This document shows positions 1,046 through 39,757 of a DNA stretch of 64,000 nt, piece after piece. Source of the stretch: Candidatus Eiseniibacteriota bacterium. GTDB lineage: Bacteria; Joyebacterota; Joyebacteria; Joyebacterales; Joyebacteraceae. Position 1 is the stretch's first letter, and every line of letters begins with the position of its first letter. The position numbers and the translations under genes were made by a program. The stretch lies in NCBI GenBank assembly GCA_030622115.1, contig JAUXGN010000007.1, positions 4,547 to 68,546 on the forward strand, read 5' to 3'. The notes under the pieces were generated by a model. The model was not told the DNA's origin and did no database searches. It saw only the letters and a list, made by a program, of their open reading frames with translations.

Positions 1046-1819
1046 TCATTGCTGCGCCTGGACAGCAGCTCCGATGATTCCAGCAAAAGCGCCAGCATCA
1101 AGGCTCGCGCCGCCGACGAGCACACCATCGACATCGCTTTCCGCCATGAGGCCGGCCGTGTTGTCCGGATTGACGCTGCCGCCGTACAGAACCCGAAGTC
1201 CGTCTGCGACGACATTACCAAAGATAGCACCTACCGACCGCCGAATCAAGCCATGAACCACATTCGCCTGATCAGGAGTTGCACTTAGCCCCGTCCCGAT
1301 AGCCCAGACCGGCTCGTAGGCGAGCACGATCCTCCCGGCGTGGTCCGGCGCCACTCCCTTGAGCGCGCTTTTGACCTGTTCCACCACGATATGCTCGGTT
1401 TTGCCGGCCTCGCGTTCCGCAAGGGCCTCTCCCACGCATACAATGGGGGTCAGTGTGCCGGAAAGCACCTTCAAGAGCTTACGATTCACATCCTCGTCCG
1501 ATTCCCCAAAGAGAGCGCGTCGCTCCGAGTGCCCGATCAGCACGTGTGAGACACCGAGCGACTCAAGCATCTCAGTCGAAATCTCGCCGGTGAAGGCGCC
1601 TGCGGACTCCCAGTACACGTTCTGTGCGCCGATCGCGATGCCGCATTCGCGAGTAGCGTCGACCGCGGTCTCAAGAACGGCCGACGGTGGACAGATAAGC
1701 ACTTCCGGCGGAGTGTCGATCCCTGCGATCCTGTTCCTGAGCGTCAGGAGAAATCGACGTGCTTGATAGGGCGTCTTGTTCAACTTCCAGTTGCCCGCGA
1801 TGACCGGTCTTCTCGACAC
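1046..1819 (-). CDS. tpiA: triosephosphate isomerase
   Basis: N-terminus MSRRPVIAGNWKLNK plus motifs HSERR, AYEPVWAIGTG and GGSV. GTG start with AAGGAG upstream. Confidence 0.9.
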   Translation of the reverse strand: MSRRPVIAGNWKLNKTPYQARRFLLTLRNRIAGIDTPPEVLICPPSAVLETAVDATRECGIAIGAQNVYWESAGAFTGEISTEMLESLGVSHVLIGHSERRALFGESDEDVNRKLLKVLSGTLTPIVCVGEALAEREAGKTEHIVVEQVKSALKGVAPDHAGRIVLAYEPVWAIGTGLSATPDQANVVHGLIRRSVGAIFGNVVADGLRVLYGGSVNPDNTAGLMAESDVDGVLVGGASLDAGAFAGIIGAAVQAQQ

Positions 1820-1836
1820 TGTCTCATAGCTCCTTG

Positions 1837-3036
1837 TCAGGCGTCGGTGAGGGCTTCTATCGCCGGAAGAGCCTTGCCCTCGAGGACGGCCAGTGATGCT
1901 CCTCCGCCTGTAGATATGTGGCTTATCCGATCGGCAACACCGGCGCGCCCCACGGCGGCGATAGAATCACCACCGCCGACTATGCTGATTGCGCCCGAGT
2001 CGGTCGCTTTCGCGACTGCTTCAGCCAGAGCGAGTGTTCCGCGGGAGAAGGCGTCCAACTCGAACACACCCACCGGTCCGTTCCAGACGATGGTCTTCGC
2101 ACCTGAGATGGCCTCCGAAAAAGCGCGGATGGTCTGTGGGCCTATGTCGAGCCCCTTCCATCCCGCCTCGATCGAGTCGGCGGGAACGATCCTGGTCTCG
2201 GCTTCCTCAGAGATCTCTCGTGCGACGACAACGTCGTTCGGAAGGAGCAGCGTCTTGCCGTCGGCCTGAGCGCGTTTGAGCATACGTGCGGCCGTCTCCA
2301 AGCGGTCGTCTTCGACAAGCGAGTCGCCGATGGACAGTCCCTTCGCCTTCAGAAAGGTGAAGGCCATGCCCCCACCGATCAAGAGGATATCAAGCATCGG
2401 CATGAGGTTCTCAATGACGCCGATCTTGCCTGAGACCTTGGCTCCACCCAGAATGGCCGCGTATGGGCGCTCGGGCGAGGCGGTTGCCTTGGTGAGATTT
2501 CGCAGTTCGTTCTCGATCAGGAACCCCATCGCGCATTCATCCAAGTGGTCGGTTACTCCCACGGTCGAAGCGTGGGCGCGGTGAGCCGTCCCGAAGGCGT
2601 CGTCTACATAGACATCACCCATCCGTGCCAGACGACGGGCGAAATCGGGCTCGTTCTTGGTCTCTCCCGCGTGGAAGCGGAGGTTCTCAAGAAGCGTGAC
2701 GTCCCCGTCGTTCATTTGGGCTACCACACCCTCAGTCGTGTCTCCCACACAGTCCGGGGCCATCGTTACACCTCGGCCGATGAGCTTCGAAAGTCGTTCC
2801 GAGACCGGTCTCAAGCTCAGTTCCGGAATACTCATGCCCTTCGGACGCCCGAGGTGAGACATGAGAACTGCCTTCCCGCCGTGCTTCCTTATGAACTCGA
2901 TCGTCGGGAGAGCCGCCCTTATGCGCGTATCGTCGCCAACGCGGTCGTCGCTCCCGAGCGGGACATTGAAATCGACGCGTGTCAGGACTCGTTTCCCTCT
3001 CAGATCGAGGTCTCTCAGACGCTTCTTTGCTGTCAT
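1837..3036 (-). CDS. pgk: phosphoglycerate kinase
   Basis: 399 aa with RVDFNVP, MSHLGRP and GGGAS motifs. The stop overlaps the RBS region of tpiA. Confidence 0.95.
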   Translation of the reverse strand: MTAKKRLRDLDLRGKRVLTRVDFNVPLGSDDRVGDDTRIRAALPTIEFIRKHGGKAVLMSHLGRPKGMSIPELSLRPVSERLSKLIGRGVTMAPDCVGDTTEGVVAQMNDGDVTLLENLRFHAGETKNEPDFARRLARMGDVYVDDAFGTAHRAHASTVGVTDHLDECAMGFLIENELRNLTKATASPERPYAAILGGAKVSGKIGVIENLMPMLDILLIGGGMAFTFLKAKGLSIGDSLVEDDRLETAARMLKRAQADGKTLLLPNDVVVAREISEEAETRIVPADSIEAGWKGLDIGPQTIRAFSEAISGAKTIVWNGPVGVFELDAFSRGTLALAEAVAKATDSGAISIVGGGDSIAAVGRAGVADRISHISTGGGASLAVLEGKALPAIEALTDA

Positions 3037-3045
3037 GATTCAACC

Positions 3046-4056
3046 CTACCTGCTCGCCACGAGCTTCATCATGTCGACCATGCGAGAGGCATAGCCGGCT
3101 TCATTGTCATACCACCCGAGTATCTTAACGAGGTCGCCGCCGGTCACGGTGGTGAGCCCGCTGTCGAAGATGCAGGAGTGCCTGTCTCCGACTATGTCTA
3201 TGGAGACGAGCGGTTCATCGGTGTAGCGGAGGTAGTCCTTAAGAGGACCTTCCTTCGATGCCTTGAGGAACGCGGCATTGACCTCTTCCGCAGAGGTCTT
3301 CTTCTCCACGTGCACCACGAAATCAACAAGTGATCCGTCAGGTGTTGGAACACGAACCGCCATTCCCTCGAGCCTCCCGGCCATGTCCGGGATGACGAGC
3401 GCAATCGCCTTGGCCGCCCCGGTCGTTGTCGGGATCATGCTGACTGCCGCAGCCCTTGCGCGCCTCAGGTCACTGTGAGGCAGATCGAGTATCTTCTGAT
3501 CGTTCGTATAAGCGTGGATCGTCGTCATGACGCCCTTGATCACACCGAAATTGTTATTCAGTACACTGATCATCGGTGCAGCACAGTTCGTGGTGCAGGA
3601 AGCCGTGGATATGATGTGATGATTATCCGGTTCGTAGAGAGCGTCGTTGACGCCCATCACGATGGAGATATCGATGCCCTTGCCCTTGCCGGGGGCGGAG
3701 ATCATCACCTTGCGGGCGCCGGCCGTCAGATGCTTCGCGGCACCCTCACGAGTGCGGAAGGCGCCGGTCGCCTCGATAACGACATCAACATCGAGCTTGC
3801 CCCAATCGAGCTTCTCTGGATCCCTCTGGGAGAAAACGGGGATGCTCTCACCGTCGACAACGATGTTCCCGCCTTCTACGCTCACTTCCCCATCGTATAC
3901 CCCGTGCACGGAGTCGTACTTGAAGAGGTGTGCCAGGGTCGCCGCGTCGGTCAGGTCATTCACAGCCACGATGTCGAAATCGGGGTTGTGTCTCGCAAAG
4001 CGAAGCACGAGCCGACCTATCCTGCCGAATCCGTTGATCGCGTACTTGAGAGCCAT
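3046..4056 (-). CDS. gap: glyceraldehyde-3-phosphate dehydrogenase
   Basis: INGFGRIGR Rossmann motif and the SCTTNC catalytic-Cys motif. AGGAGG RBS. Confidence 0.95.
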   Translation of the reverse strand: MALKYAINGFGRIGRLVLRFARHNPDFDIVAVNDLTDAATLAHLFKYDSVHGVYDGEVSVEGGNIVVDGESIPVFSQRDPEKLDWGKLDVDVVIEATGAFRTREGAAKHLTAGARKVMISAPGKGKGIDISIVMGVNDALYEPDNHHIISTASCTTNCAAPMISVLNNNFGVIKGVMTTIHAYTNDQKILDLPHSDLRRARAAAVSMIPTTTGAAKAIALVIPDMAGRLEGMAVRVPTPDGSLVDFVVHVEKKTSAEEVNAAFLKASKEGPLKDYLRYTDEPLVSIDIVGDRHSCIFDSGLTTVTGGDLVKILGWYDNEAGYASRMVDMMKLVASR

Positions 4057-4064
4057 GCTTCCTC

Positions 4065-4988
4065 CTAGGCCTTGCCTGCCGAACCGAAAAGCTCGATCTT
4101 GGACTTGACGAGTTCCTTCATGCCTTCACGCGTGGCCCCGAGGATCTTCCTCGGATCGAACACCTCGGGGTTCTCGGCCAGTATCTGGCGCGCGTACCCC
4201 GTGAATGCCAGGCGCAAATCCGTGTCGATGTTCACCTTCGCAATTCCAAATGGGATCGCCTCTCGGATGCTCTCGGGCGGCACGCCCTTTGCCCCAGGCA
4301 GCTCCGCTCCGTACTTGCGAGCAAGATCGAGAACCTCCGGAGGGACTGCCGAGGCGCCGTGCAGCACAAGAGGTACTGACACGAGCTCAGCTATCTTCTC
4401 GAGCCGGTCGATGGCCAGCTTCGCATCTCCCTTGAACTTGTATGCGCCGTGTGAAGTTCCTATGGCAATCGCCAGCGAGTCACAGCCGCTTGATTCCACA
4501 AACTCCGCTGCCTGGTTGGGATCGGTCATGGCAGCGTCGCGCTCGTCCACGGCGATCTCGTCTTCCACTCCCATCAACCTGCCGAGTTCGGCTTCGACAC
4601 TGATGCCCATCGGGTGGGCGAGTTCCACAACCGCCCGCGTCTCCTCGATGTTCTCCGCAAACGGAAGGTGCGACCCATCGATCATCACCGATGTCCAGCC
4701 GTTATCTATGCAACCGCGGATGACATCGAGGTCGGTTCCGTGATCGAGGTGCAGAGAGGCCGGCACGCCGGTCTCGTCCGAGAAGTTCCTGACGAGGTCG
4801 TGAAGGTTCTTGTAGCCGGCATACTTGATGGCCGACTGAGATGTGGCGATGATCACGGGCGAGTTGAGTTCAGCTGCAGCTTCAAAGATAGCGGCCGTGA
4901 TCTCAAGGTTGCTCGTGTTGAACGCGCCAACAGCGTAGCCGCCCTGACGAGCGGGCACCATCAGCTCATTGTTGTCCAGAAGTGGCAT
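4065..4988 (-). CDS. fba: fructose-bisphosphate aldolase, class II
   Basis: YAVGAFN N-terminal motif, LHLDHG, and length typical of class II (Zn-dependent) FBA. AGGAG RBS. Confidence 0.9.
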   Translation of the reverse strand: MPLLDNNELMVPARQGGYAVGAFNTSNLEITAAIFEAAAELNSPVIIATSQSAIKYAGYKNLHDLVRNFSDETGVPASLHLDHGTDLDVIRGCIDNGWTSVMIDGSHLPFAENIEETRAVVELAHPMGISVEAELGRLMGVEDEIAVDERDAAMTDPNQAAEFVESSGCDSLAIAIGTSHGAYKFKGDAKLAIDRLEKIAELVSVPLVLHGASAVPPEVLDLARKYGAELPGAKGVPPESIREAIPFGIAKVNIDTDLRLAFTGYARQILAENPEVFDPRKILGATREGMKELVKSKIELFGSAGKA

Positions 4989-4996
4989 GAGAACTC

Positions 4997-6040
4997 CTAT
5001 CCAAAGAATGTCCTGGCGACCTCATAAAGCTCTGAGTCGACCCGCTTGATACACTCCATCGCGTGGGCCATCTCCACTGGAATGACCTTGTCCCCTTGCA
5101 GACTCGTCATCTTGCCGAACTGACCGGCGTGAATGAGGTCGGCCGCGAGAACGCCGAAGCGTGTGCCGAGGACGCGGTCAAACGCAGTTGGTGTTCCGCC
5201 GCGCTGAGTGTATCCAAGCACGGTCACGCGTGTCTCGTATCCCGTGCGCTCTTCGATCACCTTGGCAATCCTGTTCCCGATGCCCCCGAGGCGGACGTGA
5301 CCGAACGCATCCGTCACCTTGGACTGGACAACGAGCTCTGCCTCATCGTCGTCATTCGTGGGATACTCGGCGCCCTCCGAGACAACGACGATACTGAAGT
5401 TCTTGCCCCTGGCATGACGCTTCTGGATGACCTCACAGACCTCATCGATAGTGAAGGGAACCTCGGGTATGAGGATAAGGTCAGCTCCACCTGCGATGCC
5501 CGACTTGACGGCAATCCAACCCGCGCCTCTTCCCATCACCTCGACCACCACGACCCTGTTGTGCGACTCCGCGGTTGTGTGGAGACGGTCGATCGCCTCT
5601 GTAGCGATGTGCACAGCCGTATCGAATCCGAACGTGAAGTCGGTCCCGTTGATGTCATTATCGATCGTCTTTGGCACTCCGACGAGAGGGAACCCATCCT
5701 GCCAGAGGTGGAGTGCGACGCCCAACGTATCCTCGCCACCGACGGCCACGATGCCGTTCAGGTTGAGTTCAGAGAGCGTCTCCTTGACCCGATCTACACC
5801 GTTCTTCTCTTTGTAGACATTCGTCCTGGATGTTCCGAGGATCGTCCCACCGCGAGGGAGAATTCCGGAGACCTCGTCCAGACCGAGAGGTCGGTGGTCG
5901 TTCTTGAGAACTCCAGCCCAACCGTATCTGAACCCGATCACCTCACCACCATACTTGCTGATCGTCCGTCTGACGATCGCCCTGATAACCGCGTTGAGAC
6001 CTGGGCAGTCTCCTCCACCTGTCAGGATTCCTACCTTCAT
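4997..6040 (-). CDS. pfk: 6-phosphofructokinase, predicted pyrophosphate-dependent
   Basis: MKVGILTGGGDCPGLNAV N-terminus. GGEDT occupies the position of the GGDGS motif, and PKTIDNDI has Lys where ATP-PFKs have Gly; Asp/Lys at these two sites are the classic PPi-PFK signatures. ATG at 6040 is preceded by GGAGGGAGCG; the track start at 6052 is a TTG. Confidence 0.85.
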   Translation of the reverse strand: MKVGILTGGGDCPGLNAVIRAIVRRTISKYGGEVIGFRYGWAGVLKNDHRPLGLDEVSGILPRGGTILGTSRTNVYKEKNGVDRVKETLSELNLNGIVAVGGEDTLGVALHLWQDGFPLVGVPKTIDNDINGTDFTFGFDTAVHIATEAIDRLHTTAESHNRVVVVEVMGRGAGWIAVKSGIAGGADLILIPEVPFTIDEVCEVIQKRHARGKNFSIVVVSEGAEYPTNDDDEAELVVQSKVTDAFGHVRLGGIGNRIAKVIEERTGYETRVTVLGYTQRGGTPTAFDRVLGTRFGVLAADLIHAGQFGKMTSLQGDKVIPVEMAHAMECIKRVDSELYEVARTFFG

Positions 6041-6159
6041 CGCTCCCTCCAACCGCTTCCTGAGTGTTTTCTCAGCGAGTCAATCACAATCAAATCAGAA
6101 TAGTCTCGCTCAGGGCCACTGTCAACCCGTTTTGGTCTCTACGTACCCCTGACAGAAGA

Positions 6160-32175: not shown

Positions 32176-33069
32176 TCACTTGGCGGGTCTGAACAGATAC
32201 TGGGCGCCGCCACGGATGGACGCGGGTTCCAGCAGTCCGAAAACAGATCGGCCGACCAGATCCGCCAGTGTCAATCGATGAACCTTTACAGGCTCGACAA
32301 CTCGCGGGTCGCCCTCGATTCCCCCCATTCTTGCGGCCACAAGCTCTGCGTCCTCAAGAGTCCCGAGAAGATCGACGAGGCCCTCCTTGAGTGCCTGTCG
32401 CCCCGAGAAGATGCGTCCATCGGCTATCTCCCGGACGGTCTCAATGTCGAGGGTTCGCTCCATCGCGACAACCTCCATGAACTGCAAGTGAATGTCGTCG
32501 AGCGTATCCTGGAGGAGCTCACGCTCTTCGGGAGTCATCTGCCGGTTCATAGAGCCCAGATCCTTATACTCGCCGCTCTTGACAATTTCAAAGTCTACGC
32601 CGACCTTGTCGAAGAGCTCCTCGAGATTCATGAAGGACATTATCACACCGATGCTGCCGGTCAGAGTTCCTGGATTGGCCACGATCGTGTCGGCAGGACA
32701 GGCCACGTAATATCCTCCAGAGGCTGCCATTGCTCCCATAGACACAACGATCGGCATGCCGCCTTCACGGAGGGCAACGATCTCCTCGTAGATCTCCTGG
32801 GATGCAGCCACCCCTCCCCCGGGGCTATCGATCCTGAGTACGAGCGCTTTCGTGCCCCCGTCGTCCTCGAAGGATCTGAGATCAGCAATGACCTCGCGTG
32901 AATCGGCGATCACCCCCTCTATCCGCACCAAGCCGATGTGGGCGCCGTAGGTCGGAAAGCGCATCTGCTGTCCGAGAAGCGATTCTATCAAGATCATCGT
33001 GATGAGGAATATGACGAGGAGTCCGACAGTGCCGGCCAGCCACCCCCACAGACAGCCCTTCTTGGTCAT
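32176..33069 (-). CDS. sppA: signal peptide peptidase SppA (36K type)
   Basis: N-terminal TM and ClpP/crotonase-fold motifs SPGGGV and MGAMAASGGYY; 297 aa. Confidence 0.85.
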   Translation of the reverse strand: MTKKGCLWGWLAGTVGLLVIFLITMILIESLLGQQMRFPTYGAHIGLVRIEGVIADSREVIADLRSFEDDGGTKALVLRIDSPGGGVAASQEIYEEIVALREGGMPIVVSMGAMAASGGYYVACPADTIVANPGTLTGSIGVIMSFMNLEELFDKVGVDFEIVKSGEYKDLGSMNRQMTPEERELLQDTLDDIHLQFMEVVAMERTLDIETVREIADGRIFSGRQALKEGLVDLLGTLEDAELVAARMGGIEGDPRVVEPVKVHRLTLADLVGRSVFGLLEPASIRGGAQYLFRPAK

Positions 33070-33098: not shown

Positions 33099-33887
33099 TT
33101 ACGTTTGCTTCGTTCGGCGCCTGACTTCCTCAATGACTGCCTTCACCAGTGCATCATTCGTCGCGTCTGCCGGGTCCGTCGAACCGCTTGCCTCATCGCT
33201 TGAGTTGGGACAGACACCGCAATCGTAGCAGATATCGATCGTTCCAGCTATTCCGAGCTTCTCACGGACGCGAACCAGGTCTTCCAGGTTTGCTCTTGAG
33301 AGAGGTGATGCTCCTCCAAGCTGCCGCGCAGTCAGTGAGACCGCGGCGAAATGCTCAACTGTCTCCATGCGATAGTAGGCTTGGTAGATGTCCTCCCCGA
33401 GTGTGAGAACACCGTGATTCTTGAGCAGCATGGCGCTGTGGGTGTCAATGAATCCGCTGATCGACTGTGAAACCTCCTGTGTGGAGGGGGTTGCGTAGTC
33501 CGCCAGCGGTACGCCGCCCAATGACAGGATGACTTCGGGAAGGATGCACTGCGCCAGAGCCACGCCTGCGACCGCAAACCCTGTGGCTTTTGGCGGGTGA
33601 GCGTGCACAACACTTCCGATCTCGGGGCGGCGGTTGTAGGCGAAGAGGTGCATCCCGAGCTCCGATGTCGGTTCGAGGCGCCCAGCCAGTTTCTGTCCCT
33701 TGAGATTGACGACCACCAGATCGTCTGTTCGGAGGAACCCCTTCGACCGCCCCGTCGGTGTGACGACGATGCGATCACGGTCGATCCGAATACTGAGATT
33801 GCCGTCATTCGAGGCGACGTAGCCACGCTCCCAGATTCTCCGTCCTATCTCAACGATCTGTCGCTCGGCCTCAAACTGCGAGAGCAT
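33099..33887 (-). CDS. class II aldolase/adducin-family aldolase (fuculose/rhamnulose-1-phosphate aldolase-like) with C-terminal encapsulation peptide; BMC signature enzyme
   Basis: Zn-ligand motif VVHAHPP and catalytic Glu in EPTSELGMHLFAY. C-terminal extension CYDCGVCP, an acidic/Ser linker, then amphipathic helix ALVKAVIEEVRRR. The ATG at 33887 lies 5 nt after the BMC-P stop. Confidence 0.85.
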   Translation of the reverse strand: MLSQFEAERQIVEIGRRIWERGYVASNDGNLSIRIDRDRIVVTPTGRSKGFLRTDDLVVVNLKGQKLAGRLEPTSELGMHLFAYNRRPEIGSVVHAHPPKATGFAVAGVALAQCILPEVILSLGGVPLADYATPSTQEVSQSISGFIDTHSAMLLKNHGVLTLGEDIYQAYYRMETVEHFAAVSLTARQLGGASPLSRANLEDLVRVREKLGIAGTIDICYDCGVCPNSSDEASGSTDPADATNDALVKAVIEEVRRRTKQT

Positions 33888-33894
33888 TCTTCCC

Positions 33895-34167
33895 CTATGC
33901 CTCCACGTCGATCCTGTCGACGACTCCCACGATGAGCGTGCGAATCGGCGGATCATCAAGTCCGGTGACCAGTGCTGCAGAGGTGCCCTCGTCAACCACC
34001 AGAACAACCTCTCCGACGCCGGCTCCCACCGAGTCGATCGCCAGGAGCGAATCCCCCAACGGCCTTCGCTCGGTGTCGAGTCTCTCTATCACGAGGAGTT
34101 TGCGCCCCTCGAGTGCAGGGTGCTTTATGGTCGATACAACTTCGCCGATGATCTTTGCGAGAAACAA
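33895..34167 (-). CDS. BMC vertex protein (BMC-P, EutN/PduN/CcmL family)
   Basis: MFLAKIIGEVVSTIKHPALEGRKLLVI...AIDSVGAGVGEVVLV...IVGVVDRI shows the canonical BMC-P pattern; 90 aa. Confidence 0.85.
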   Translation of the reverse strand: MFLAKIIGEVVSTIKHPALEGRKLLVIERLDTERRPLGDSLLAIDSVGAGVGEVVLVVDEGTSAALVTGLDDPPIRTLIVGVVDRIDVEA

Positions 34168-34196: not shown

Positions 34197-34454
34197 TCAG
34201 GTGTTGAGGATCGTCACGTCGTCAACGATACCCAGGATAGCTGCATCCACCGGATTGAAACGTTCCTCCAACGCCTTGCACGCCTCGCGGGATTTCACGA
34301 AGTAGATGAGTTGCCCCGGAGCAGCAGAGACCGTGTCGACGGCGACGAGTGGACGTCCCAGCTCCTGTAGATCGTGTGTCAACGGCTGTACCACCAGAAG
34401 GCGGTATCCCTTGAGGGTCTCCACCTTGACCGTGGCCCAGACGCTACCTATCAC
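34197..34454 (-). CDS. BMC vertex protein (BMC-P, EutN/PduN family), paralogue 2
   Basis: MIGSVWATVKVETLKGYRLLVV...AVDTVSAAPGQLIYF...ILGIVDDV; 85 aa. Confidence 0.85.
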   Translation of the reverse strand: MIGSVWATVKVETLKGYRLLVVQPLTHDLQELGRPLVAVDTVSAAPGQLIYFVKSREACKALEERFNPVDAAILGIVDDVTILNT

Positions 34455-34479: not shown

Positions 34480-35028
34480 CTAGAAGACCTTGGATTGGAG
34501 ATCCTTGTGCGGGCGCGGGATCACCACGCTCCGGACCAGGTTCCCGCTCTTCTTGAGAAGCAGAAGCGCGGCTTCGATGGCCGCTTCGACTTGGTAGATG
34601 TCGCCCGTCACACAGAAGAACCCCTTTCCCCCGAGTCCCTTGGCCAGGCGAATCTCGATGAGTCTGATGTGCGCGGCCTTCGCGGCCGCATCAGCGGCCG
34701 CAATGGAAGCCGCTGCCGTGAAAGTCTCCACAACCCCGAGCGCGCTCAGTTCGGCGACATCAGTAGCGCCGAGCAATGCCGGAAAGACGTCGGAGTGGAC
34801 GTGCGGGATGAACAGCGTATCCACGACGACGTCTCCCCCGATCTCGATGCCCCGAGCGAGCGACGCTTCCACAGCCGATACATCACCCGCCACCAGCACC
34901 ATGTACTTCCCGGGGCAGATGGCCGTGGCGTCCAGTATCTCGACCGGAGCGCATTTCGCCATCTCGTCGGCGATGCGTATGCCAAGAGCGATGCTTATTG
35001 TCTCTATGAGGGCTATCGCTTCCCTCAA
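34480..35028 (-). CDS. pduT: PduT-like tandem-domain BMC shell protein (BMC-T) with conserved Fe-S-ligand cysteine
   Basis: 182 aa, two BMC domains. AICPGKYMVLVAGDVSAVEASLARG, VVDTLFIPHVHSDVFPALLG and RSVVIPRPHKDL align closely with Salmonella PduT ([25 protein letters not shown]...RSVIPRPHEAM) including Cys38. Confidence 0.85.
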   Translation of the reverse strand: MREAIALIETISIALGIRIADEMAKCAPVEILDATAICPGKYMVLVAGDVSAVEASLARGIEIGGDVVVDTLFIPHVHSDVFPALLGATDVAELSALGVVETFTAAASIAAADAAAKAAHIRLIEIRLAKGLGGKGFFCVTGDIYQVEAAIEAALLLLKKSGNLVRSVVIPRPHKDLQSKVF

Positions 35029-35092
35029 AGCTCCTCCTTCAAGCGGCGTCTCAGACAGATGCAGCGATCGGATCCGACAAGACCCGTCCTCG

Positions 35093-36424
35093 CTAGTTCA
35101 TGGACTCGATGACGACCTCGACGGGAGTGACGGACGTGACTCCTCCATCGATGCTGGCGTGGACACGCGCCCCAATGCCGCCGGGTCGAATCTCTCCGAT
35201 CAGATCGCCCTCCAGTACCCGCTGCCCCACCTCGACGATCGGTTCGGCCGGGTTGCCGACGTGTTGACTCATGGGCAGCACCACGCGTCGGGTCTCTTGC
35301 GTCCAGTCCTTGAGCGGAGCTGAAACGTCATAGTCCGAAAGACCCAGGCGCTGAACGAGTCGAACCGACGGGATCTGTCGGTACTCTCTCACGCCGTCCG
35401 GGCTGAGGTCCGCTCTGGTGTGAGGGTTCTCGATTCCTCTCAGTGACAGCTCCGCCTTGAGAGCGGCCAGAATACGCCGGGGCTGTATTCCCAGCGGACA
35501 GGCGAAGAGCTCACACATGCCGCACTCGCAGCAGAGGTACGCTGATGTGATGTGTGGGTGGTCCATCTCAAGCGTCGAGTACTGTATCGCTCTTATTGTT
35601 CTGTGAGGGGCGAGTTCGTGTCCGAGAAGGGCACGGGGACAGAGCTCGGTGCAGGCCATACACTGGCAGCATGCCGCCCTGGCAAGCCTGAGCACGTGCG
35701 CCTCTGTCGAGGCACGCGACGCAATCAGCGGATGCTCCTCGGAAAGCACGACGATTCCTCCAACTGTCTTCGTGACCGGTTCCGAGAGATTGTCTACTGC
35801 CAGTCGTCCCATCATGGGGCCGCCGACGATCACAGCGGGATTCTCCACGGTTGCTCCACCACTCGCGGCAACGAGATCTCCAATCGGAACACCTATCGGA
35901 ACATCGAAGGTTGCAGGCCTCTTGACGGCGCCCTGCACTGAGACCAATCGTCTGGTCACTGGACGGCCAAGAACGGCTTCTGCCACGTTGGCCAGTGTCA
36001 TCACGTTGTTCACGACCACACCGATGTCGAGCGGGATGCCTCCCTCGGGAATGACACGACCCGTGAGTTCGTAGACCAGGAGATACTCGTCTCCCGCGGG
36101 GTAGACGTCATCCAGAAACTCGAGTTCGATGCCCGGGAAACGACCAAGCTCCGATGTCAGCGCATCTCCAGCGTCGACGTTCTCTCGCTTGACGGCAATC
36201 ACCGCGCGCGATGCTCCAAGCGAATCTCGCATGAGACTCACTCCCTTGAGCACACGCTCGGGAGCGGTCGCCATTATGATTCCGTCCGAGCGGAGCAGTG
36301 GCTCGCACTCGGCCCCATTAGCGATCATCGTATCGGCCCGCCCAAGAGCCTTCACGTGCGTTGGGAAACCGGCTCCGCCGGCCCCTACGACGCCCGCCTT
36401 CTCTATGGCAGTGGCCGTTGACAT
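35093..36424 (-). CDS. pduS: PduS-like RnfC/NuoF-family Fe-S flavoprotein (BMC-associated oxidoreductase)
   Basis: N-terminal NADH/FMN-binding region (GAGGAGFPT), two ferredoxin-type clusters CCQCMACTELCP and CCECGMCELFACP; 443 aa. Its ATG follows the aldehyde dehydrogenase stop by 1 nt. Confidence 0.8.
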   Translation of the reverse strand: MSTATAIEKAGVVGAGGAGFPTHVKALGRADTMIANGAECEPLLRSDGIIMATAPERVLKGVSLMRDSLGASRAVIAVKRENVDAGDALTSELGRFPGIELEFLDDVYPAGDEYLLVYELTGRVIPEGGIPLDIGVVVNNVMTLANVAEAVLGRPVTRRLVSVQGAVKRPATFDVPIGVPIGDLVAASGGATVENPAVIVGGPMMGRLAVDNLSEPVTKTVGGIVVLSEEHPLIASRASTEAHVLRLARAACCQCMACTELCPRALLGHELAPHRTIRAIQYSTLEMDHPHITSAYLCCECGMCELFACPLGIQPRRILAALKAELSLRGIENPHTRADLSPDGVREYRQIPSVRLVQRLGLSDYDVSAPLKDWTQETRRVVLPMSQHVGNPAEPIVEVGQRVLEGDLIGEIRPGGIGARVHASIDGGVTSVTPVEVVIESMN

Positions 36425-36425
36425 T

Positions 36426-37856
36426 CTAGACGATCCTGAAGTAGTCGACGAGCGTGCAGCGGCGCTCTCGCGTGAATGTTCGCGCCGACGTCAATCCCTC
36501 TCCCGTCGGGCTCGCTATGGTGAACGTGGTGAAGCCTTCTCCACCGAACCCAAGACCGGCGAATGAGGGCCCGTTCTTCACGAAGATCGAGCAGTCCATG
36601 ACTCTCGCCATGCGAGAGAGGTGCTCGATGCTCTTCGAATGCATGACCGCCGTATGCCGGTTGCCGCGCTCGACACGCCTCGCGAGATCTATGGCTTCGA
36701 TCGCGGTCTCCACGATTACCATGGGAACGACAGGCATCATCTGTTCAGTCCAGACGAGGGGATGGTCCACGTCGGCCACGAAAAAGGCCAATCTTGTTCC
36801 AGCGGGACAGGAGAGACCTGCCTCCCTGAGGATCACATCCGCATCCCGGCCCACGAGTTCCCGTTTCAGGGGGGAACTGCGTTCTGCCCCCCGGTCTTCC
36901 TCGAGAACCGTCTTCGTCAGACGCTCGATAGCCTGTCCCTTGACCTCTAGTGCGCCCGCCGCAGAAAGCGCCGCGCGCAGTCTGTCTGATACGGCGCGAA
37001 CGGCGATTATCTCCTTCTCAGCAATACAGACGATGTTGTTGTCGAAGCTCGCGCCCGCGATGATGTCCCGCGCCGCCTGGTCAACGTCGGCTGTCTCATC
37101 GACCACCACCGGGGGGTTGCCCGGTCCGGCTGCTATGACCTTCTTCCCGCTCTCCATCGCCGCCCTCACCACCGCTGGGCCGCCCGTCACGACGAGAAGC
37201 TTTATGTCGGAGTGCCGCATGAGCGCTTGTGCCGTGTCTATTGAAGGCTCACTGACTGCGTACAGAAGCGCCCGGGGACCTCCCGCCGCGCTGATGGCGC
37301 GATTCAGAATGTCGATCGTCGTGAGGGAGACAACGCGTGCTCCCGGATGCGGATTGAACACGACAGCATTGCCGCCTGCGATCATGCTGATTGCGTTGTT
37401 GATGATGGTCTCGGATGGGTTGGTCGATGGGGTGATGGATCCGATCACTCCGTACGGCGCACGCTCCACAATCGTAAGCCCGTGGTCTCCAGAGAAAGCC
37501 ACGGGCCTCAGATCTTCCGTGCCCGGAGTGCGTTCTGCGACGAGGACGTTCTTCTGTTCCTTGTCCTCGATGCGCCCGAGCCCTGTCTCTTCTACCGCCT
37601 GCTCCGCGAGCGACCGCGCGTTCTCGAGAGCGGCCAAGCGCATTGCCTGAATGATCCCCTTGCGGAGTTCGAGCGAACTCCCGATCAGCTCGCGCTGGCT
37701 CGTCCACGCAGCCCGAACAGCGTCATCCATCGCCTCGAGAATCCCGCGACCGTCAAAGGCCGGAGGCGCCTGTCTCGGCGTCGCTTCCCCAGTGGATACC
37801 AATTCACGGACGACACGCTCGACTACCGTCCTGATGGCAAGCTCTTCATTCGCCAT
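36426..37856 (-). CDS. CoA-acylating aldehyde dehydrogenase (PduP/EutE family) with N-terminal encapsulation peptide
   Basis: ALDH fold with catalytic Cys in NNIVCIAEKE. N-terminal amphipathic helix EELAIRTVVERVVRELV, then linker STGEATPRQAPPAFDG; 476 aa. Confidence 0.9.
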   Translation of the reverse strand: MANEELAIRTVVERVVRELVSTGEATPRQAPPAFDGRGILEAMDDAVRAAWTSQRELIGSSLELRKGIIQAMRLAALENARSLAEQAVEETGLGRIEDKEQKNVLVAERTPGTEDLRPVAFSGDHGLTIVERAPYGVIGSITPSTNPSETIINNAISMIAGGNAVVFNPHPGARVVSLTTIDILNRAISAAGGPRALLYAVSEPSIDTAQALMRHSDIKLLVVTGGPAVVRAAMESGKKVIAAGPGNPPVVVDETADVDQAARDIIAGASFDNNIVCIAEKEIIAVRAVSDRLRAALSAAGALEVKGQAIERLTKTVLEEDRGAERSSPLKRELVGRDADVILREAGLSCPAGTRLAFFVADVDHPLVWTEQMMPVVPMVIVETAIEAIDLARRVERGNRHTAVMHSKSIEHLSRMARVMDCSIFVKNGPSFAGLGFGGEGFTTFTIASPTGEGLTSARTFTRERRCTLVDYFRIV

Positions 37857-37875: not shown

Positions 37876-38163
37876 TCACTTGTCGTAGAGGAGCTTCCCG
37901 CCGACCTCGATGGAGTCGACGATAGCCATGATGACGGCATCGGCAGGTCTGTCCTTCGTCAGCGAGGTCTGGCGCGCCGAGCTTCCGCTCGCGTAGAGAA
38001 CGATCTCTCCCTCACCAGCACCGACTGCGTCGATCGCAACGACGAACGCTCCCGTCTCGCTGCCATCCAGTTCGACCTGTTTCACGATCAAGAGCTTCGT
38101 GCCTGTAAGCTTGTCGTCCTTCTGGCTGGCGACGATTGTCCCGACGACCTTGCCGATAGTCAT
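37876..38163 (-). CDS. BMC vertex protein (BMC-P), paralogue 3
   Basis: ATG at 38163 with AGAGGTGG RBS gives MTIGKVVGTIVASQKDDKLTGTKLLIV...AIDAVGAGEGEIVLY...IMAIVDSI. The longer track ORF adds 21 non-conserved residues. Confidence 0.8.
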   Translation of the reverse strand: MTIGKVVGTIVASQKDDKLTGTKLLIVKQVELDGSETGAFVVAIDAVGAGEGEIVLYASGSSARQTSLTKDRPADAVIMAIVDSIEVGGKLLYDK

Positions 38164-38276
38164 AGTCCACCTCTGCCGTCCGTGTAGCACCACACAACCC
38201 AGACCAAGGCCTGTGGGCGGCAACAAATCAGTTCGCTCACACCCGGTCTGTGCGTCGTCCTGACTGGTGATGGTCT

Positions 38277-38573
38277 CTATTTCGCCTTCGATTTCGCTGT
38301 CTTGCCGATCGGCAGCGCATCCTCAAGACTCGAGTGAGGCTGTGGTATGACGTGCGTGGAGATAAGCTCGCCCACCTTGCTGGCAGTTGCCATTCCGGCA
38401 TCCACCGCTGCGCGCACCGCAGCGACGTCGCCGCGAACGATGGCTGTCACGTACCCCCCGCCGACCTTCTCATAGCCGACGAGCCTCACCTTGGCTGCTT
38501 TCACCATGGCATCGGATGCTTCGACCATTCCGATAAAACCCCTGGTCTCGATCATTCCGAGGGCTTCGCCCAT
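38277..38573 (-). CDS. BMC hexamer shell protein (BMC-H, PduA/EutM family)
   Basis: [57 protein letters not shown] is the canonical BMC domain; 98 aa with a K-rich C-terminal tail. Confidence 0.9.
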
Positions 38574-38636: not shown

Positions 38637-38933
38637 CTACAGCATCGTTCCTTCCAGCATCTCGTGCGGCGCTGGTATGACATGATACGAAACAAGTTCA
38701 CCGACCTTGCCGGCAGCCGCAGCCCCGGCGGCGACAGCAGCCTTCACTGCGCCCACATCCCCTCGGACGATAGCGGTAACGTACCCGCCACCGATTCTCT
38801 CGTACTTCGTCAGTGTGACGTTGGCGGTCTTGACCATTGCGTCAGCGGCCTCTACGAGGCCAACCACTCCCTTGGTCTCAACCATTCCAAGCGCAAGTCC
38901 CGGCAATCGTTTCACCCCCTCGCTTAAGTCCAT
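38637..38933 (-). CDS. BMC hexamer shell protein (BMC-H), paralogue 2
   Basis: [55 protein letters not shown] at 38906 preceded by GAGGGGGTG would give the canonical N-terminus [13 protein letters not shown]; the ATG at 38933 is an alternative. Confidence 0.85.
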
Positions 38934-38937
38934 TCAC

Positions 38938-39603
38938 TCAGGAATGGAGAATCTCCACGGTCGTTGGCAATCCTACGCCGGCCGCATTTGCATTGTCGGT
39001 ATCAATGTGAAACTCGAGAAGCGCGCTCTTGGAGACACGGATCAGGATCTTCTCGAGCACCAAGGATGCTGATCCCGGGAACCGGACCCTGACAAGATCT
39101 CCATCCGTCACCCTGTGGATCTCAGCATCACGCTCAGTCATATGAATGTGACGCATCGCACGGATCGCCACATCACGCAGATGAACCGTTCCGGCCGGTC
39201 CCACAAGCGTGAGCGTCTCGCTTCCCACCAGATCTCCGGATCGACGTATAGGCGGTTCGATTCCCAATCTGACGGCATCGGTGGCGGAGACCTCGACCTG
39301 CGTGTATGTACGCAACGGTCCCAGTACACGGACACGCTCGATTGCACGCATTGACCGGCCCACGAGCGTTACGGTCTGCTCGGATGCAAACTCCCCCGGC
39401 TGTCCCAGATCGGTGCGCCGCGTGAGTTCAAACCCCTCACCGTACAGTCTGTCCAGTACGCCGCGCGAGATGTGGATGTGCCTTGCCGAGACCGAAACCG
39501 GGATCGTCGCCGTGGCCGTGACCTGATCTTGACCGGATCCGCCCAGCCTACGGATGACTTCCTGTGCGATTCTTTCGACTTGGTCCAATCTTCCTCCCTG
39601 CAC
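38938..39603 (-). CDS. pduL: PduL-type phosphotransacylase with N-terminal encapsulation peptide
   Basis: Two PduL repeats with the ARHIH motif (VSARHIHIS...). N-terminal amphipathic helix LDQVERIAQEVIRRL plus a GGSGQ linker; 221 aa. First gene of the BMC operon. Confidence 0.85.
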   Translation of the reverse strand: MQGGRLDQVERIAQEVIRRLGGSGQDQVTATATIPVSVSARHIHISRGVLDRLYGEGFELTRRTDLGQPGEFASEQTVTLVGRSMRAIERVRVLGPLRTYTQVEVSATDAVRLGIEPPIRRSGDLVGSETLTLVGPAGTVHLRDVAIRAMRHIHMTERDAEIHRVTDGDLVRVRFPGSASLVLEKILIRVSKSALLEFHIDTDNANAAGVGLPTTVEILHS

Positions 39604-39725
39604 CGAGCCTGGTGAAAGGCGGAATGAACGAGGTTTACACCTAGTCGGCTCGGCAGCTGACCGAAGTCGAGGGCAGTCTAGCAGAGGGGGGATGACGTGT
39701 CAACGGAAACGGGGCAAACGAGTTG

Positions 39726-39757
39726 CGGCCTCCTCCGCAAAGCGGAGGAGGCCGCGA
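39726..39757. promoter_or_regulatory. near-perfect 31-nt palindrome (GCGGCCTCCTCCGC aaa GCGGAGGAGGCCGC) about 120 nt upstream of the BMC operon start
   Basis: 14-bp perfect inverted repeat read directly from sequence, in the 488-nt intergenic region between the glycan-locus GT2 gene and pduL. Could be an operator for a dimeric regulator or a 5'-UTR/terminator hairpin; no U-tract follows on either strand. Confidence 0.35.

What the first reader, a model, noticed from the sequence alone, without database searches (positions are those of the whole stretch)
34480..36424. PduS/PduT Fe-S redox pair inside a B12-independent aldolase BMC: candidate trans-shell electron conduit replacing the alcohol dehydrogenase
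The 182-aa BMC-T aligns almost residue-for-residue with Salmonella PduT, including the pore-lining Cys (AICPGKY) that ligates a 4Fe-4S cluster. The adjacent 443-aa protein has the PduS/RnfC architecture (NADH/FMN site plus two CxxCxxCxxxCP clusters). In Pdu systems PduS reduces cobalamin, but this locus has no B12 enzyme. The locus encodes an NAD+-consuming aldehyde dehydrogenase yet no alcohol dehydrogenase to regenerate NAD+. A reasonable hypothesis is that PduS oxidises lumenal NADH and passes electrons through the PduT cluster to an external acceptor.
Basis: inference. Interest (0 to 1): 0.75.

Follow-up and report, generated by a model that had tools for sequence, protein, structure and literature searches.

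The report
Microcompartment NADH dehydrogenase and iron-sulfur shell pore
The two genes are a genuine PduS/PduT-type pair inside a ten-gene sugar-aldolase microcompartment operon that encodes no alcohol dehydrogenase, but the proposed role, exporting electrons through the shell to recycle NAD+, was published with experimental support in 2024, so this is a new example of a known device.

Summary
On the minus strand, 35093-36424 encodes a PduS-type flavo-iron-sulfur protein, now called MNdh. It is 45% identical to Salmonella PduS, and all eight cluster cysteines and the FMN/NADH motifs are conserved. 34480-35028 encodes a PduT-type tandem shell protein (BMC-T^SE). It is 38% identical to Salmonella PduT with no gaps, and Cys38 lies in ICPGK.

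They sit in a ten-gene operon: pduL, BMC-H, BMC-H, BMC-P, aldDH, MNdh, T^SE, BMC-P, BMC-P, class II aldolase. The source is probably Candidatus Eisenbacteria. I found no alcohol dehydrogenase, 2-hydroxyacid dehydrogenase or B12 enzyme in the 64-kb window or in the related loci fetched with this cassette.

Sutter et al. (PNAS 2024, PMC11626177) named and characterised this module. They reported 361 loci that have it together with the aldehyde dehydrogenase and lack an alcohol dehydrogenase.

What this window adds:
- The cassette recurs in two different genomic contexts.
- It looks like a mosaic: an SPU-like AldDH-MNdh-T core joined to an ACI/FRAG-like aldolase and BMC-P genes.
- The aldolase carries four co-conserved cysteines (C114 plus CxxCGxC), which none of the papers I read or searched mentions.

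The rest of the genome could not be searched for an unlinked dehydrogenase.

The parts
39675..39703 (-). Promoter-like site (TTGACA, 17 nt, TAGACT, with TG) about 70-85 nt upstream of pduL
   Evidence: The number of such sites in the region equals the shuffle expectation, so this is weak evidence. An 11-bp-stem hairpin lies just upstream at 39727-39753.
38938..39603 (-). PduL-type phosphotransacylase. The true start is probably TTG 39588, which puts the encapsulation-peptide-like helix MDQVERIAQEVIRRL at the N-terminus.
   Evidence: PF06130 E 1e-63. NCBIfam PRK15070 scores 225 bits against a cutoff of 209. The N-terminal helix is conserved in orthologues and is the strongest amphipathic segment of the protein. 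A Shine-Dalgarno-like GGGAGG lies before TTG 39588.
38637..38933 (-). BMC-H shell hexamer protein 1
   Evidence: PF00936 E 3e-29.
38277..38573 (-). BMC-H shell hexamer protein 2
   Evidence: PF00936 E 3e-30.
37876..38226 (-). BMC-P vertex pentamer protein 1. The real start is probably about 20 codons downstream of the ORF start.
   Evidence: PF03319 E 4e-29, with the domain starting at residue 22. The orthologue in L001 is called at 95 aa.
36426..37856 (-). CoA-acylating aldehyde dehydrogenase, the NADH producer, with an N-terminal encapsulation-peptide-like helix (IRTVVERVVRELV) followed by a linker
   Evidence: PF00171. NCBIfam PRK15398 scores 655 bits against a cutoff of 403. Best solved relative is 5JFL at E 1e-133; that 5JFL is a microcompartment aldehyde dehydrogenase is my own knowledge. 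The helix is conserved in orthologues.
35093..36424 (-). MNdh (PduS-type NADH dehydrogenase): FMN/NADH domain, SLBB domain, two [4Fe-4S] motifs and a C-terminal RnfC_N domain. It has no encapsulation peptide.
   Evidence: It is 45% identical to Salmonella PduS. C252/255/258/262 and C298/301/304/309 are invariant, as are GAGGxGFP and NxAECEP. The AlphaFold model has pLDDT 94 and its best solved match is RnfC 9ERI_C at E 4e-25.
34480..35028 (-). BMC-T^SE (PduT-type tandem-domain shell trimer protein) with pore Cys38 in the ICPGK motif. It uses a TTG start, as its orthologues do.
   Evidence: CPGK is conserved in all nine related cassettes fetched.
34197..34454 (-). BMC-P vertex pentamer protein 2
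   Evidence: PF03319 E 2e-23.
33895..34167 (-). BMC-P vertex pentamer protein 3. It is hidden under the over-long aldolase ORF.
   Evidence: PF03319 E 5e-26. Orthologues are present in all related cassettes.
33099..33887 (-). Class II aldolase, the signature enzyme (262 aa). It has the CxxCGxC motif at 220-226, a variable linker and a C-terminal encapsulation-peptide-like helix.
   Evidence: PF00596 E 4e-46. The start was read from the sequence. Tail conservation is shown. The helix at residues 239-260 is predicted in the model.
32176..33069 (-). S49 (SppA-like) peptidase, a neighbouring gene that is probably co-transcribed but is not part of the cassette
   Evidence: PF01343. The gene start lies 29 nt after the aldolase stop, and the next promoter-like site comes only after it. 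It is conserved downstream in Eisenbacteria-type loci and absent from the same cassette in L088.

Best explanation
[quoted passage not shown] They belong to a self-contained, B12-independent microcompartment operon.

Proposed pathway, with the status of each step:
1. A class II aldolase splits a ketose-1-phosphate into DHAP and an aldehyde. The substrate is unknown. Lactaldehyde, glycolaldehyde and acetaldehyde are all possible products.
2. The encapsulated aldehyde dehydrogenase oxidises the aldehyde to an acyl-CoA and makes NADH.
3. PduL recycles CoA and gives an acyl-phosphate.
4. MNdh, docked on the lumenal face of the BMC-T trimer, oxidises the trapped NADH at its FMN.
5. Electrons pass through the two [4Fe-4S] clusters of MNdh to the [4Fe-4S] cluster held by the three Cys38 residues in the trimer pore.
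6. From there they go to an unidentified cytosolic acceptor, such as ferredoxin, flavodoxin or O2.

The consequence would be that all of the aldehyde is oxidised and no alcohol by-product is needed.

Shown here: gene identities, cofactor-ligand conservation, adjacency, operon content, and the absence of a linked alcohol or hydroxyacid dehydrogenase. Inferred by homology to the characterised C. botulinum complex: NADH oxidation, lumenal docking, the direction of electron flow and the existence of an external acceptor.
For: - Domain architecture with the permuted C-terminal RnfC_N domain.
- 45% identity to Salmonella PduS, with invariant FMN/NADH motifs and all eight cluster cysteines.
- High-confidence model whose best solved match is RnfC, followed by NuoF-type NADH dehydrogenases.
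- The BMC-T is colinear with solved PduT structures and keeps Cys38 in CPGK.
- MNdh and the BMC-T are adjacent in the window and in all 12 other fetched loci that hold both.
- The aldDH stop and the MNdh start are one base apart.
- Pfam scans of all large ORFs of the window found no alcohol dehydrogenase, lactate/malate dehydrogenase, 2-hydroxyacid dehydrogenase or B12 enzyme.
- tblastn with PduQ found nothing in the window or in any other fetched locus (88 sequences searched).
- Distribution is complementary among related aldolase loci. 21 ACI-type loci have a 2-hydroxyacid dehydrogenase and no MNdh/T. The loci with MNdh/T have no such dehydrogenase.
- Encapsulation-peptide-like helices are present on PduL, the aldehyde dehydrogenase and the aldolase but not on MNdh. 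That fits recruitment of MNdh through the shell protein.
- The published model rests on NADH oxidation assays, EPR and voltammetry, and counts 361 loci with the pair and the aldehyde dehydrogenase but no alcohol dehydrogenase (PMC11626177).
Against: - No experiment exists for this protein pair.
- Only 64 kb of the genome was visible, so an unlinked dehydrogenase with an encapsulation peptide cannot be excluded.
- No candidate external acceptor is encoded next to the cassette in the window.
- Even in the model system the in vivo acceptor is unknown, and half of the published docking solutions placed MNdh on the outer face.
- NCBIfam's PduT equivalog model scores the BMC-T at 111 bits, below its 250-bit cutoff.
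- The same paper says PVM-like loci usually have neither regeneration system. It also says that in PVM and ACI types the module mostly sits in satellite loci. Aldolase microcompartments therefore do not generally depend on it.
Confidence: 0.75

Rival explanations
1. The pair is only an auxiliary or conditional module. Most NAD+ regeneration would be done by a dehydrogenase encoded elsewhere and targeted to the compartment, or by slow NAD(H) exchange through shell pores.
For: 1,725 published loci carry both systems, and Salmonella pduS or pduT knockouts only slow growth. The closest aldolase relatives (ACI type) use a 2-hydroxyacid dehydrogenase in the locus and keep their aldehyde dehydrogenase in a satellite locus, so split encoding is common in this lineage. 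Only 64 kb of the genome was seen.
Against: The ten-gene cassette recurs without any dehydrogenase in two different genomic contexts and in seven syntenic Eisenbacteria-type loci. 2-hydroxyacid dehydrogenase and MNdh/T never co-occur within the sequence fetched around each of the 80-odd related loci (up to 10 kb each side).
Confidence: 0.15
2. Electrons flow inward, or the redox chain serves another lumenal purpose. Examples are maintaining or repairing iron-sulfur or thiol sites, including the cysteine motif on the aldolase, or sensing cytosolic redox state to gate the compartment.
For: Axen et al. cite earlier work proposing PduS and PduT for electron transport across the shell, and suggest the PduS homologue could accept electrons from PduT. 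The aldolase of this clade has four co-conserved cysteines. Their presence tracks the presence of MNdh/T: 8 loci have both, 49 have neither and 2 are discordant.
Against: The measured potentials and EPR of the C. botulinum complex favour flow from NADH to FMN to the iron-sulfur clusters to the shell-protein cluster. The only NAD-linked enzyme in the operon produces NADH. The association with the cysteine motif is confounded by shared ancestry.
Confidence: 0.08
3. This is the classical PduS function: reduction of cobalamin for a B12-dependent enzyme that belongs to the same system but is encoded elsewhere.
For: Salmonella PduS was characterised as a cobalamin reductase, and the record annotates it so. 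In one related locus (L088) a RACo-like corrinoid activase gene lies just upstream of the cassette.
Against: The window holds no diol dehydratase, ethanolamine ammonia-lyase, adenosyltransferase or other B12 gene. None is seen in the four Pfam-annotated cassettes apart from the single RACo neighbour. The signature enzyme is a metal-dependent aldolase. The published analysis argues the fold leaves little room for cobalamin binding.
Confidence: 0.02

Closest known systems
MNdh / BMC-T^SE module (Sutter et al., PNAS 2024, PMC11626177), characterised from a Clostridium botulinum GRM1 locus
   Same: Four-domain MNdh with the permuted RnfC_N domain, FMN/NADH motifs and two [4Fe-4S] motifs. The adjacent tandem BMC-T has the CPGK pore cysteine. 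It co-occurs with an acylating aldehyde dehydrogenase, the system is B12-independent and the locus has no alcohol dehydrogenase.
   Different: The signature enzyme here is a class II aldolase rather than a glycyl radical enzyme. The phylum differs (probably Candidatus Eisenbacteria). There are no experimental data for this pair. In the paper's survey, aldolase-type compartments (PVM, ACI) mostly carry the module in satellite loci, whereas here it lies in the middle of the main operon.
Salmonella enterica PduS and PduT (Pdu microcompartment)
   Same: PduS is 45% identical and PduT 38% identical without gaps. All cofactor ligands are the same and the gene order pduP-(pduQ)-pduS-pduT is similar.
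   Different: The Pdu locus has a B12-dependent diol dehydratase, B12-recycling enzymes and the alcohol dehydrogenase PduQ between pduP and pduS. None of these is present here. Salmonella PduS has about 14 extra N-terminal residues.
'SPU-like' locus of Latescibacteria (Axen et al. 2014, PMC4207490) and the KSB1 locus L015
   Same: Aldehyde dehydrogenase, PduL, PduS homologue, class II aldolase with a C-terminal encapsulation peptide, a BMC-P triplet and no alcohol dehydrogenase.
   Different: Those loci also encode an RpiB-like isomerase, acetate kinase and a DeoR regulator, and their gene order differs. The proteins are only 41-49% identical. KSB1 has CSGK instead of CPGK and lacks the full CxxCGxC motif.
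SPU (DERA-type) metabolosome loci, for example L083 and L084
   Same: The core gene order is the same: PduL, H, one unannotated gene, AldDH, MNdh, T. Outside this clade these are the most similar AldDH (55-59%), MNdh (49-50%) and T (50-52%) proteins. The published account says NAD+ recycling by MNdh is possible in SPU loci too.
   Different: Their signature enzymes are DERA plus RpiB. The window has neither, and has a class II aldolase instead.
ACI and PVM aldolase microcompartments (Sutter et al. 2021, PMC8217296; the PVM compartment as summarised there and in PMC4207490)
   Same: Class II aldolase with a C-terminal encapsulation peptide, and three BMC-P genes. The aldolase is 44-56% identical to those of ACI-type (Vicinamibacterales) and Bryobacterales loci.
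   Different: ACI loci have a 2-hydroxyacid dehydrogenase in the locus, keep the aldehyde dehydrogenase in a satellite locus and have no MNdh/T nearby. PVM was proposed to use a lactate/malate-dehydrogenase-type enzyme and has acetate kinase and DeoR.

Membership tests
MNdh (PduS family) | Four domains: Complex1_51K, SLBB, a 4Fe-4S dicluster domain, and RnfC_N permuted to the C-terminus | tested here: met
   Pfam: residues 7-148, 161-207, 251-313 and 377-441. HMMER splits the RnfC match into two stretches in swapped order.
MNdh (PduS family) | FMN/NADH-binding motifs and eight cysteine ligands for two [4Fe-4S] clusters | tested here: met
   GAGGAGFP, NGAECEP and GGPMMG are present. C252/255/258/262 and C298/301/304/309 are invariant in alignments with Salmonella PduS and with 37 homologues.
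MNdh (PduS family) | Fold like RnfC/NuoF | tested here: met
   The AlphaFold model has pLDDT 94 and pTM 0.91. Its top Foldseek match is RnfC 9ERI_C (E 4e-25, rmsd 2.8 A over 337 columns), followed by NuoF-type subunits.
MNdh (PduS family) | Gene adjacent to a BMC-T^SE gene, in a locus with an acylating aldehyde dehydrogenase | tested here: met
   AldDH 36426-37856, MNdh 35093-36424 and T 34480-35028 are consecutive on one strand.
MNdh (PduS family) | Binds FMN and iron-sulfur clusters and oxidises NADH without cobalamin | not testable with these tools
   This needs anaerobic expression, UV-vis/EPR spectroscopy and activity assays.
BMC-T^SE (PduT family) | Single-layer tandem BMC-domain protein, colinear with PduT | tested here: met
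   Two PF00936 stretches. Full-length gap-free alignments to 3PAC, 3N79 and 3NWG. NCBIfam's strict PduT equivalog cutoff is not reached: 111 bits against 250.
BMC-T^SE (PduT family) | CP(G/S)K pore motif with the cluster-ligating cysteine | tested here: met
   ICPGKY, with Cys38 aligned to PduT Cys38. CPGK is present in all nine related cassettes.
BMC-T^SE (PduT family) | A [4Fe-4S] cluster at the trimer pore, and a complex with MNdh on the lumenal face | not testable with these tools
   Only single-chain prediction was available, and no spectroscopy.
PDU (B12-dependent propanediol) microcompartment | Diol dehydratase PduCDE, with B12 adenosyltransferase and reactivase | tested here: not met
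   No such Pfam family is found in any large ORF of the window.
SPU metabolosome | DERA (PF01791) as the universal signature enzyme, usually with RpiB | tested here: not met
   The window has no DeoC or LacAB_rpiB hit (the Pfam calls above; tblastn with RpiB). The core order and the best similarity of AldDH, MNdh and T are SPU-like.
ACI microcompartment | Aldolase with C-terminal encapsulation peptide, 2-hydroxyacid dehydrogenase, BMC-P triplet, aldehyde dehydrogenase in a satellite locus, Acidobacteria only | tested here: not met
   The aldolase tail and the three BMC-P genes are present. The 2-hydroxyacid dehydrogenase is absent, the aldehyde dehydrogenase is in the locus, and the host is not an acidobacterium.
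'SPU-like' locus (Axen 2014) | AldDH, PduL, PduS, class II aldolase, RpiB-like isomerase and acetate kinase | tested here: inconclusive
   The first four are present. The RpiB-like isomerase and acetate kinase are absent from the window. The type was defined from only two genomes.

The most novel reading that the evidence does not exclude
The signature aldolase of this cassette may carry a Cys4 metal or iron-sulfur site that none of the papers I read or searched mentions. It would be formed by core residue C114 together with the CxxCGxC motif (C220, C223, C226), which lies between the catalytic domain and the encapsulation peptide.

All 120 motif-bearing sequences have Cys at position 114. Among motif-less relatives, 57 have Ala, 25 Cys and 1 Pro. 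The motif is found almost only where MNdh/BMC-T^SE is in the locus.

If this is a redox-active site, aldolase activity, or its packaging into the compartment, could be coupled to the lumenal redox state set by the MNdh/T conduit. That would make the cassette a compact redox-regulated organelle rather than just another locus that uses MNdh.
Probability: 0.12. Interest if true: 0.6.

Novelty: new member of a known kind. Interest (0 to 1): 0.3.

Why it matters
The general idea is established in the literature: a protein shell that conducts electrons so that a trapped NAD pool can be recycled without wasting substrate as alcohol. This window does not change that.

Its practical value is as a compact natural example. 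It has ten genes, one operon and no linked competing dehydrogenase, it is B12-independent, and it comes from an uncultured phylum. The same cassette recurs in two genomic contexts. That makes it a convenient minimal system for two experiments:
- testing whether MNdh/BMC-T^SE alone can sustain an aldehyde-oxidising microcompartment;
- looking for the still-unknown external electron acceptor.

The apparent joining of an SPU-like core with an ACI/FRAG-like aldolase illustrates the modular evolution of these organelles. The conserved four-cysteine feature of the aldolase is a small new lead.

Tried and rejected
- An exact-sequence look-up of the window's MNdh and of its 100%-identical database copy P0001 found no contig on record. 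The rest of the source genome therefore could not be read, and no genome-wide search for dehydrogenases or B12 enzymes was possible.
- The supplementary tables of Sutter et al. 2024, which give occurrence per compartment type, are not held. I could not check whether this exact locus type is among their 361 loci.
- An Rfam scan of the whole window found nothing, so there is no riboswitch upstream of the operon.
- I first assumed that all close aldolase relatives would sit in similar loci. This was wrong. Most of them (Acidobacteriota, Latescibacterota, Gemmatimonadota) have only aldolase, one BMC-H and usually BMC-P genes nearby, without AldDH, PduL, MNdh or T.
- I considered the S49 peptidase as part of the system. 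It is absent from the same cassette in L088.
- I considered filing the locus as PVM, ACI or SPU. Each fails at least one defining feature (see the membership test).
That region of the model also has low confidence.
- Prediction of the MNdh/BMC-T complex was not possible with the single-chain tool.
Full report
**What is in the window**

The finding lies in a compact minus-strand operon between about 39.6 kb and 33.1 kb. The Pfam, NCBIfam and PDB sequence searches give these genes in order of transcription:

| Coordinates | Product | Evidence |
|---|---|---|
| 38938-39603 | PduL phosphotransacylase | |
| 38637-38933 | BMC-H | |
| 38277-38573 | BMC-H | |
| 37876-38226 | BMC-P | |
| 36426-37856 | CoA-acylating aldehyde dehydrogenase | NCBIfam PRK15398, 655 bits; best solved relative 5JFL, E 1e-133 |
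| 35093-36424 | PduS-like protein (443 aa) | |
| 34480-35028 | tandem BMC-domain protein (182 aa) | |
| 34197-34454 | BMC-P | |
| 33895-34167 | BMC-P | |
| 33099-33887 | class II aldolase | |

The third BMC-P gene was hidden under an over-long aldolase ORF. The aldolase therefore starts at ATG 33887 and is 262 aa. A promoter-like site precedes pduL, and an 11-bp-stem hairpin lies just upstream of it. Rfam finds nothing in the window.

**Check of the observation**

The BMC-T aligns end to end with solved PduT-type proteins: 3NWG at E 5e-45, Citrobacter PduT 3PAC at E 6e-42 and Salmonella PduT 3N79 at E 3e-37. I fetched an annotated Salmonella pdu operon (CP075030.1). Against its PduT the protein shows 38% identity, 62% positives and no gaps over 181 residues. 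Cys38 of ICPGKY lies on Cys38 of ICPGKF. The C38S mutant structure 4NWN has Ser in that column.

The 443-aa protein has the PduS domain order: Complex1_51K, SLBB, Fer4_17 and a C-terminal RnfC_N. It is 45% identical to Salmonella PduS. GAGGxGFP, NxAECEP, GGPMMG and all eight cluster cysteines are invariant. An AlphaFold model built on 38 sequences has pLDDT 94. Its best solved matches are RnfC subunits (E 4e-25, rmsd 2.8 A), followed by NuoF-type NADH dehydrogenases.

Identity to PduT is moderate, although the alignment is colinear. The second cluster motif is CxxCxxCxxxxCP, as it is in Salmonella PduS and in 100 of the 120 closest homologues.

**No linked dehydrogenase or B12 enzyme**

I scanned essentially every large ORF of the 64 kb against Pfam. 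The flanks hold polysaccharide-synthesis genes, cell-division and cell-shape genes, EF-P, AccBC and a distant glycolytic cluster at 1046-6052.

The window has no Fe- or Zn-alcohol dehydrogenase, no lactate/malate or 2-hydroxyacid dehydrogenase, and no B12 enzyme. It also has no sugar kinase or isomerase and no acetate kinase. tblastn with Salmonella PduQ finds nothing in the window or in any other fetched locus.

**Organism and conservation**

The closest MNdh and aldolase homologues carry names of Candidatus Eisenbacteria MAGs.

The same ten genes in the same order, with the same flanks, occur in related loci L001-L003, L005-L007 and L089, and in part in L008. The identical cassette also occurs in L088 with unrelated flanks: a RACo-like gene upstream, prolyl-tRNA synthetase downstream and no S49 peptidase. 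The cassette is thus a conserved unit and not a chance neighbourhood. None of the four Pfam-annotated copies contains a dehydrogenase other than the aldehyde dehydrogenase and MNdh. CPGK is kept in all nine related cassettes.

PduL and the aldehyde dehydrogenase have conserved N-terminal amphipathic helices followed by variable linkers. The aldolase has a C-terminal one. These look like encapsulation peptides. MNdh has no such extension, which fits recruitment through the shell protein.

**Relation to other microcompartment types**

A scan of one genome per species with the aldolase returned 80 loci. Only the Eisenbacteria-type loci and one KSB1 locus (L015) have AldDH, PduL, MNdh and BMC-T nearby.

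L015 encodes DeoR, three BMC-P, an RpiB-like isomerase, MNdh, T, PduL, AldDH, BMC-H, aldolase and acetate kinase. That is the 'SPU-like' content described for Latescibacteria by Axen et al. 2014.

Most other relatives (Vicinamibacterales, Bryobacterales, Latescibacterota, Gemmatimonadota) have only aldolase plus one BMC-H, usually followed by BMC-P genes. In 21 of them a 2-hydroxyacid dehydrogenase follows. This is the ACI type of Sutter et al. 2021. The 2-hydroxyacid dehydrogenase and MNdh/T never co-occur in the sequence fetched around these loci. This is consistent with the two being alternative ways of recycling NAD+, although the loci are not phylogenetically independent.

The nearest non-Eisenbacteria MNdh homologues (49-50% identity) lie in DERA-type SPU loci with the order PduL, H, one unannotated gene, AldDH, MNdh, T. 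The window's AldDH (55-59%) and T (50-52%) are also closer to those loci than to the KSB1 aldolase locus (44% and 47%). The cassette therefore looks like an SPU-like core joined to an ACI/FRAG-like aldolase and BMC-P set. This rests on pairwise identities only, not on trees.

**Mechanism and comparison with the literature**

Their main points are:
- PduS homologues, renamed MNdh, occur in 2,172 loci of many B12-independent types.
- They are adjacent to a BMC-T carrying CP(G/S)K in 97% of cases.
- They co-occur with the aldehyde dehydrogenase.
- In 361 loci they are present together with the aldehyde dehydrogenase where no alcohol dehydrogenase is encoded.
- The purified C. botulinum complex oxidises NADH.
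- EPR and voltammetry support flow from FMN through the iron-sulfur clusters to the shell-protein cluster.
- The physiological acceptor is unknown.

Axen et al. 2014 had already suggested electron shuttling by PduS and PduT in GRM1 loci, and a PduS role in place of the alcohol dehydrogenase in SPU loci. The idea has since been applied to SPU loci and to archaeal compartments.

The window meets every sequence-level criterion of the module (see the membership test). I put 0.75 on the NAD+-recycling electron-export function. The main rival is that the module is auxiliary to an unlinked dehydrogenase (0.15). A cobalamin-reductase role is very unlikely (0.02).

The aldehyde produced is not known. 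The aldolase scores below every NCBIfam equivalog cutoff. Its best solved relatives are 6VOQ (entry name 'Aldolase') and fuculose-phosphate aldolases, at E 1e-22 to 1e-24.

**Side observation**

The aldolase has a CxxCGxC motif (C220, C223, C226) between its catalytic domain and the encapsulation-peptide linker.
- It is present in 109 of the 120 closest homologues.
- All 120 motif-bearing sequences in a pooled alignment of about 200 also have Cys at core position 114. Motif-less relatives have Ala (57), Cys (25) or Pro (1) there.
- Among loci with at least 4 kb on both sides, 8 have both the motif and MNdh/T, 49 have neither and 2 are discordant.
- The motif region has low confidence in the monomer model.
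- A full-text search found no paper describing it.

This could be a Cys4 zinc or iron-sulfur site. The association with MNdh/T is confounded by shared ancestry.

**Verdict**

This is a new member of a known kind, in a compact and recurrent cassette from an uncultured phylum. Interest is modest (0.3).

Noticed in passing
window 33099-33887 (-), aldolase residues C114, C220, C223, C226: A CxxCGxC motif lies between the aldolase domain and the C-terminal encapsulation-peptide linker. It is conserved in 109 of the 120 closest homologues and always comes with Cys at core position 114 (120 of 120). Relatives without the motif mostly have Ala there. The motif tracks the presence of MNdh/BMC-T in the locus: 8 loci have both, 49 have neither and 2 are discordant. 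It may be a Cys4 metal or iron-sulfur site. None of the papers I read or searched describes it.
   Followed up: partly
window 33895-34167 (-): A third BMC-P (EutN/CcmL) gene is hidden by an over-long aldolase ORF that starts at TTG 34007. The operon therefore has three BMC-P genes, split one plus two, as in PVM, ACI and FRAG-type loci.
   Followed up: yes
window 32176-33069 (-): The start of an S49/SppA-like membrane peptidase gene lies 29 nt after the aldolase stop, with no promoter-like or terminator-like site between them. It is conserved there in all Eisenbacteria-type loci but absent from the same cassette in L088. It is probably a co-transcribed neighbour and not a microcompartment component.
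   Followed up: partly
window 39727-39753 (-) and 39675-39703 (-): A perfect 11-bp-stem hairpin (GGCCTCCTCCG, loop CTTTG, CGGAGGAGGCC) is followed about 25 nt later by a promoter-like TTGACA-17-TAGACT site, in the 490-nt gap upstream of pduL. It could be the terminator of the upstream glycosyltransferase gene or an operator. No Rfam family matches.
   Followed up: no
window 36424-36428 (-): The aldehyde dehydrogenase stop codon and the MNdh ATG are separated by a single base, as in L001. This suggests translational coupling of the NADH producer and the NADH oxidiser. Other relatives have gaps of 10-37 nt.
   Followed up: partly
L085 1886-10145: In a Poribacteria-type contig, an MNdh homologue next to PduL and BMC-H genes is followed by a GGDEF protein, a ferredoxin-like protein, a CCG-domain (HdrB-like) protein and a 1,485-aa HdrA/GltD-like flavo-iron-sulfur oxidoreductase. 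These are possible cytosolic electron sinks for an MNdh system.
   Followed up: no
L088 1124-3025: A RACo-like gene (Fer2, Raco_middle and RACo_C_ter domains; reductive activase of corrinoid proteins) lies 400 nt upstream of the same ten-gene cassette in a different genomic context. It is the only corrinoid-related gene seen near any copy of the cassette.
   Followed up: no
window 1046-6052 (-): A contiguous glycolytic gene cluster (PFK, class II FBP aldolase, GAPDH, PGK, TIM) lies 27 kb from the microcompartment operon. It could take up the DHAP released by the aldolase, but there is no evidence of linkage.
   Followed up: no
L016 11917-13068: The 2-hydroxyacid dehydrogenase of the ACI-type locus has an N-terminal extension of about 65 residues ahead of its catalytic domain in the ORF as listed. 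If the upstream start is real, this could be an encapsulation peptide, in line with a lumenal NAD+-recycling role in loci that lack MNdh/T.
   Followed up: no
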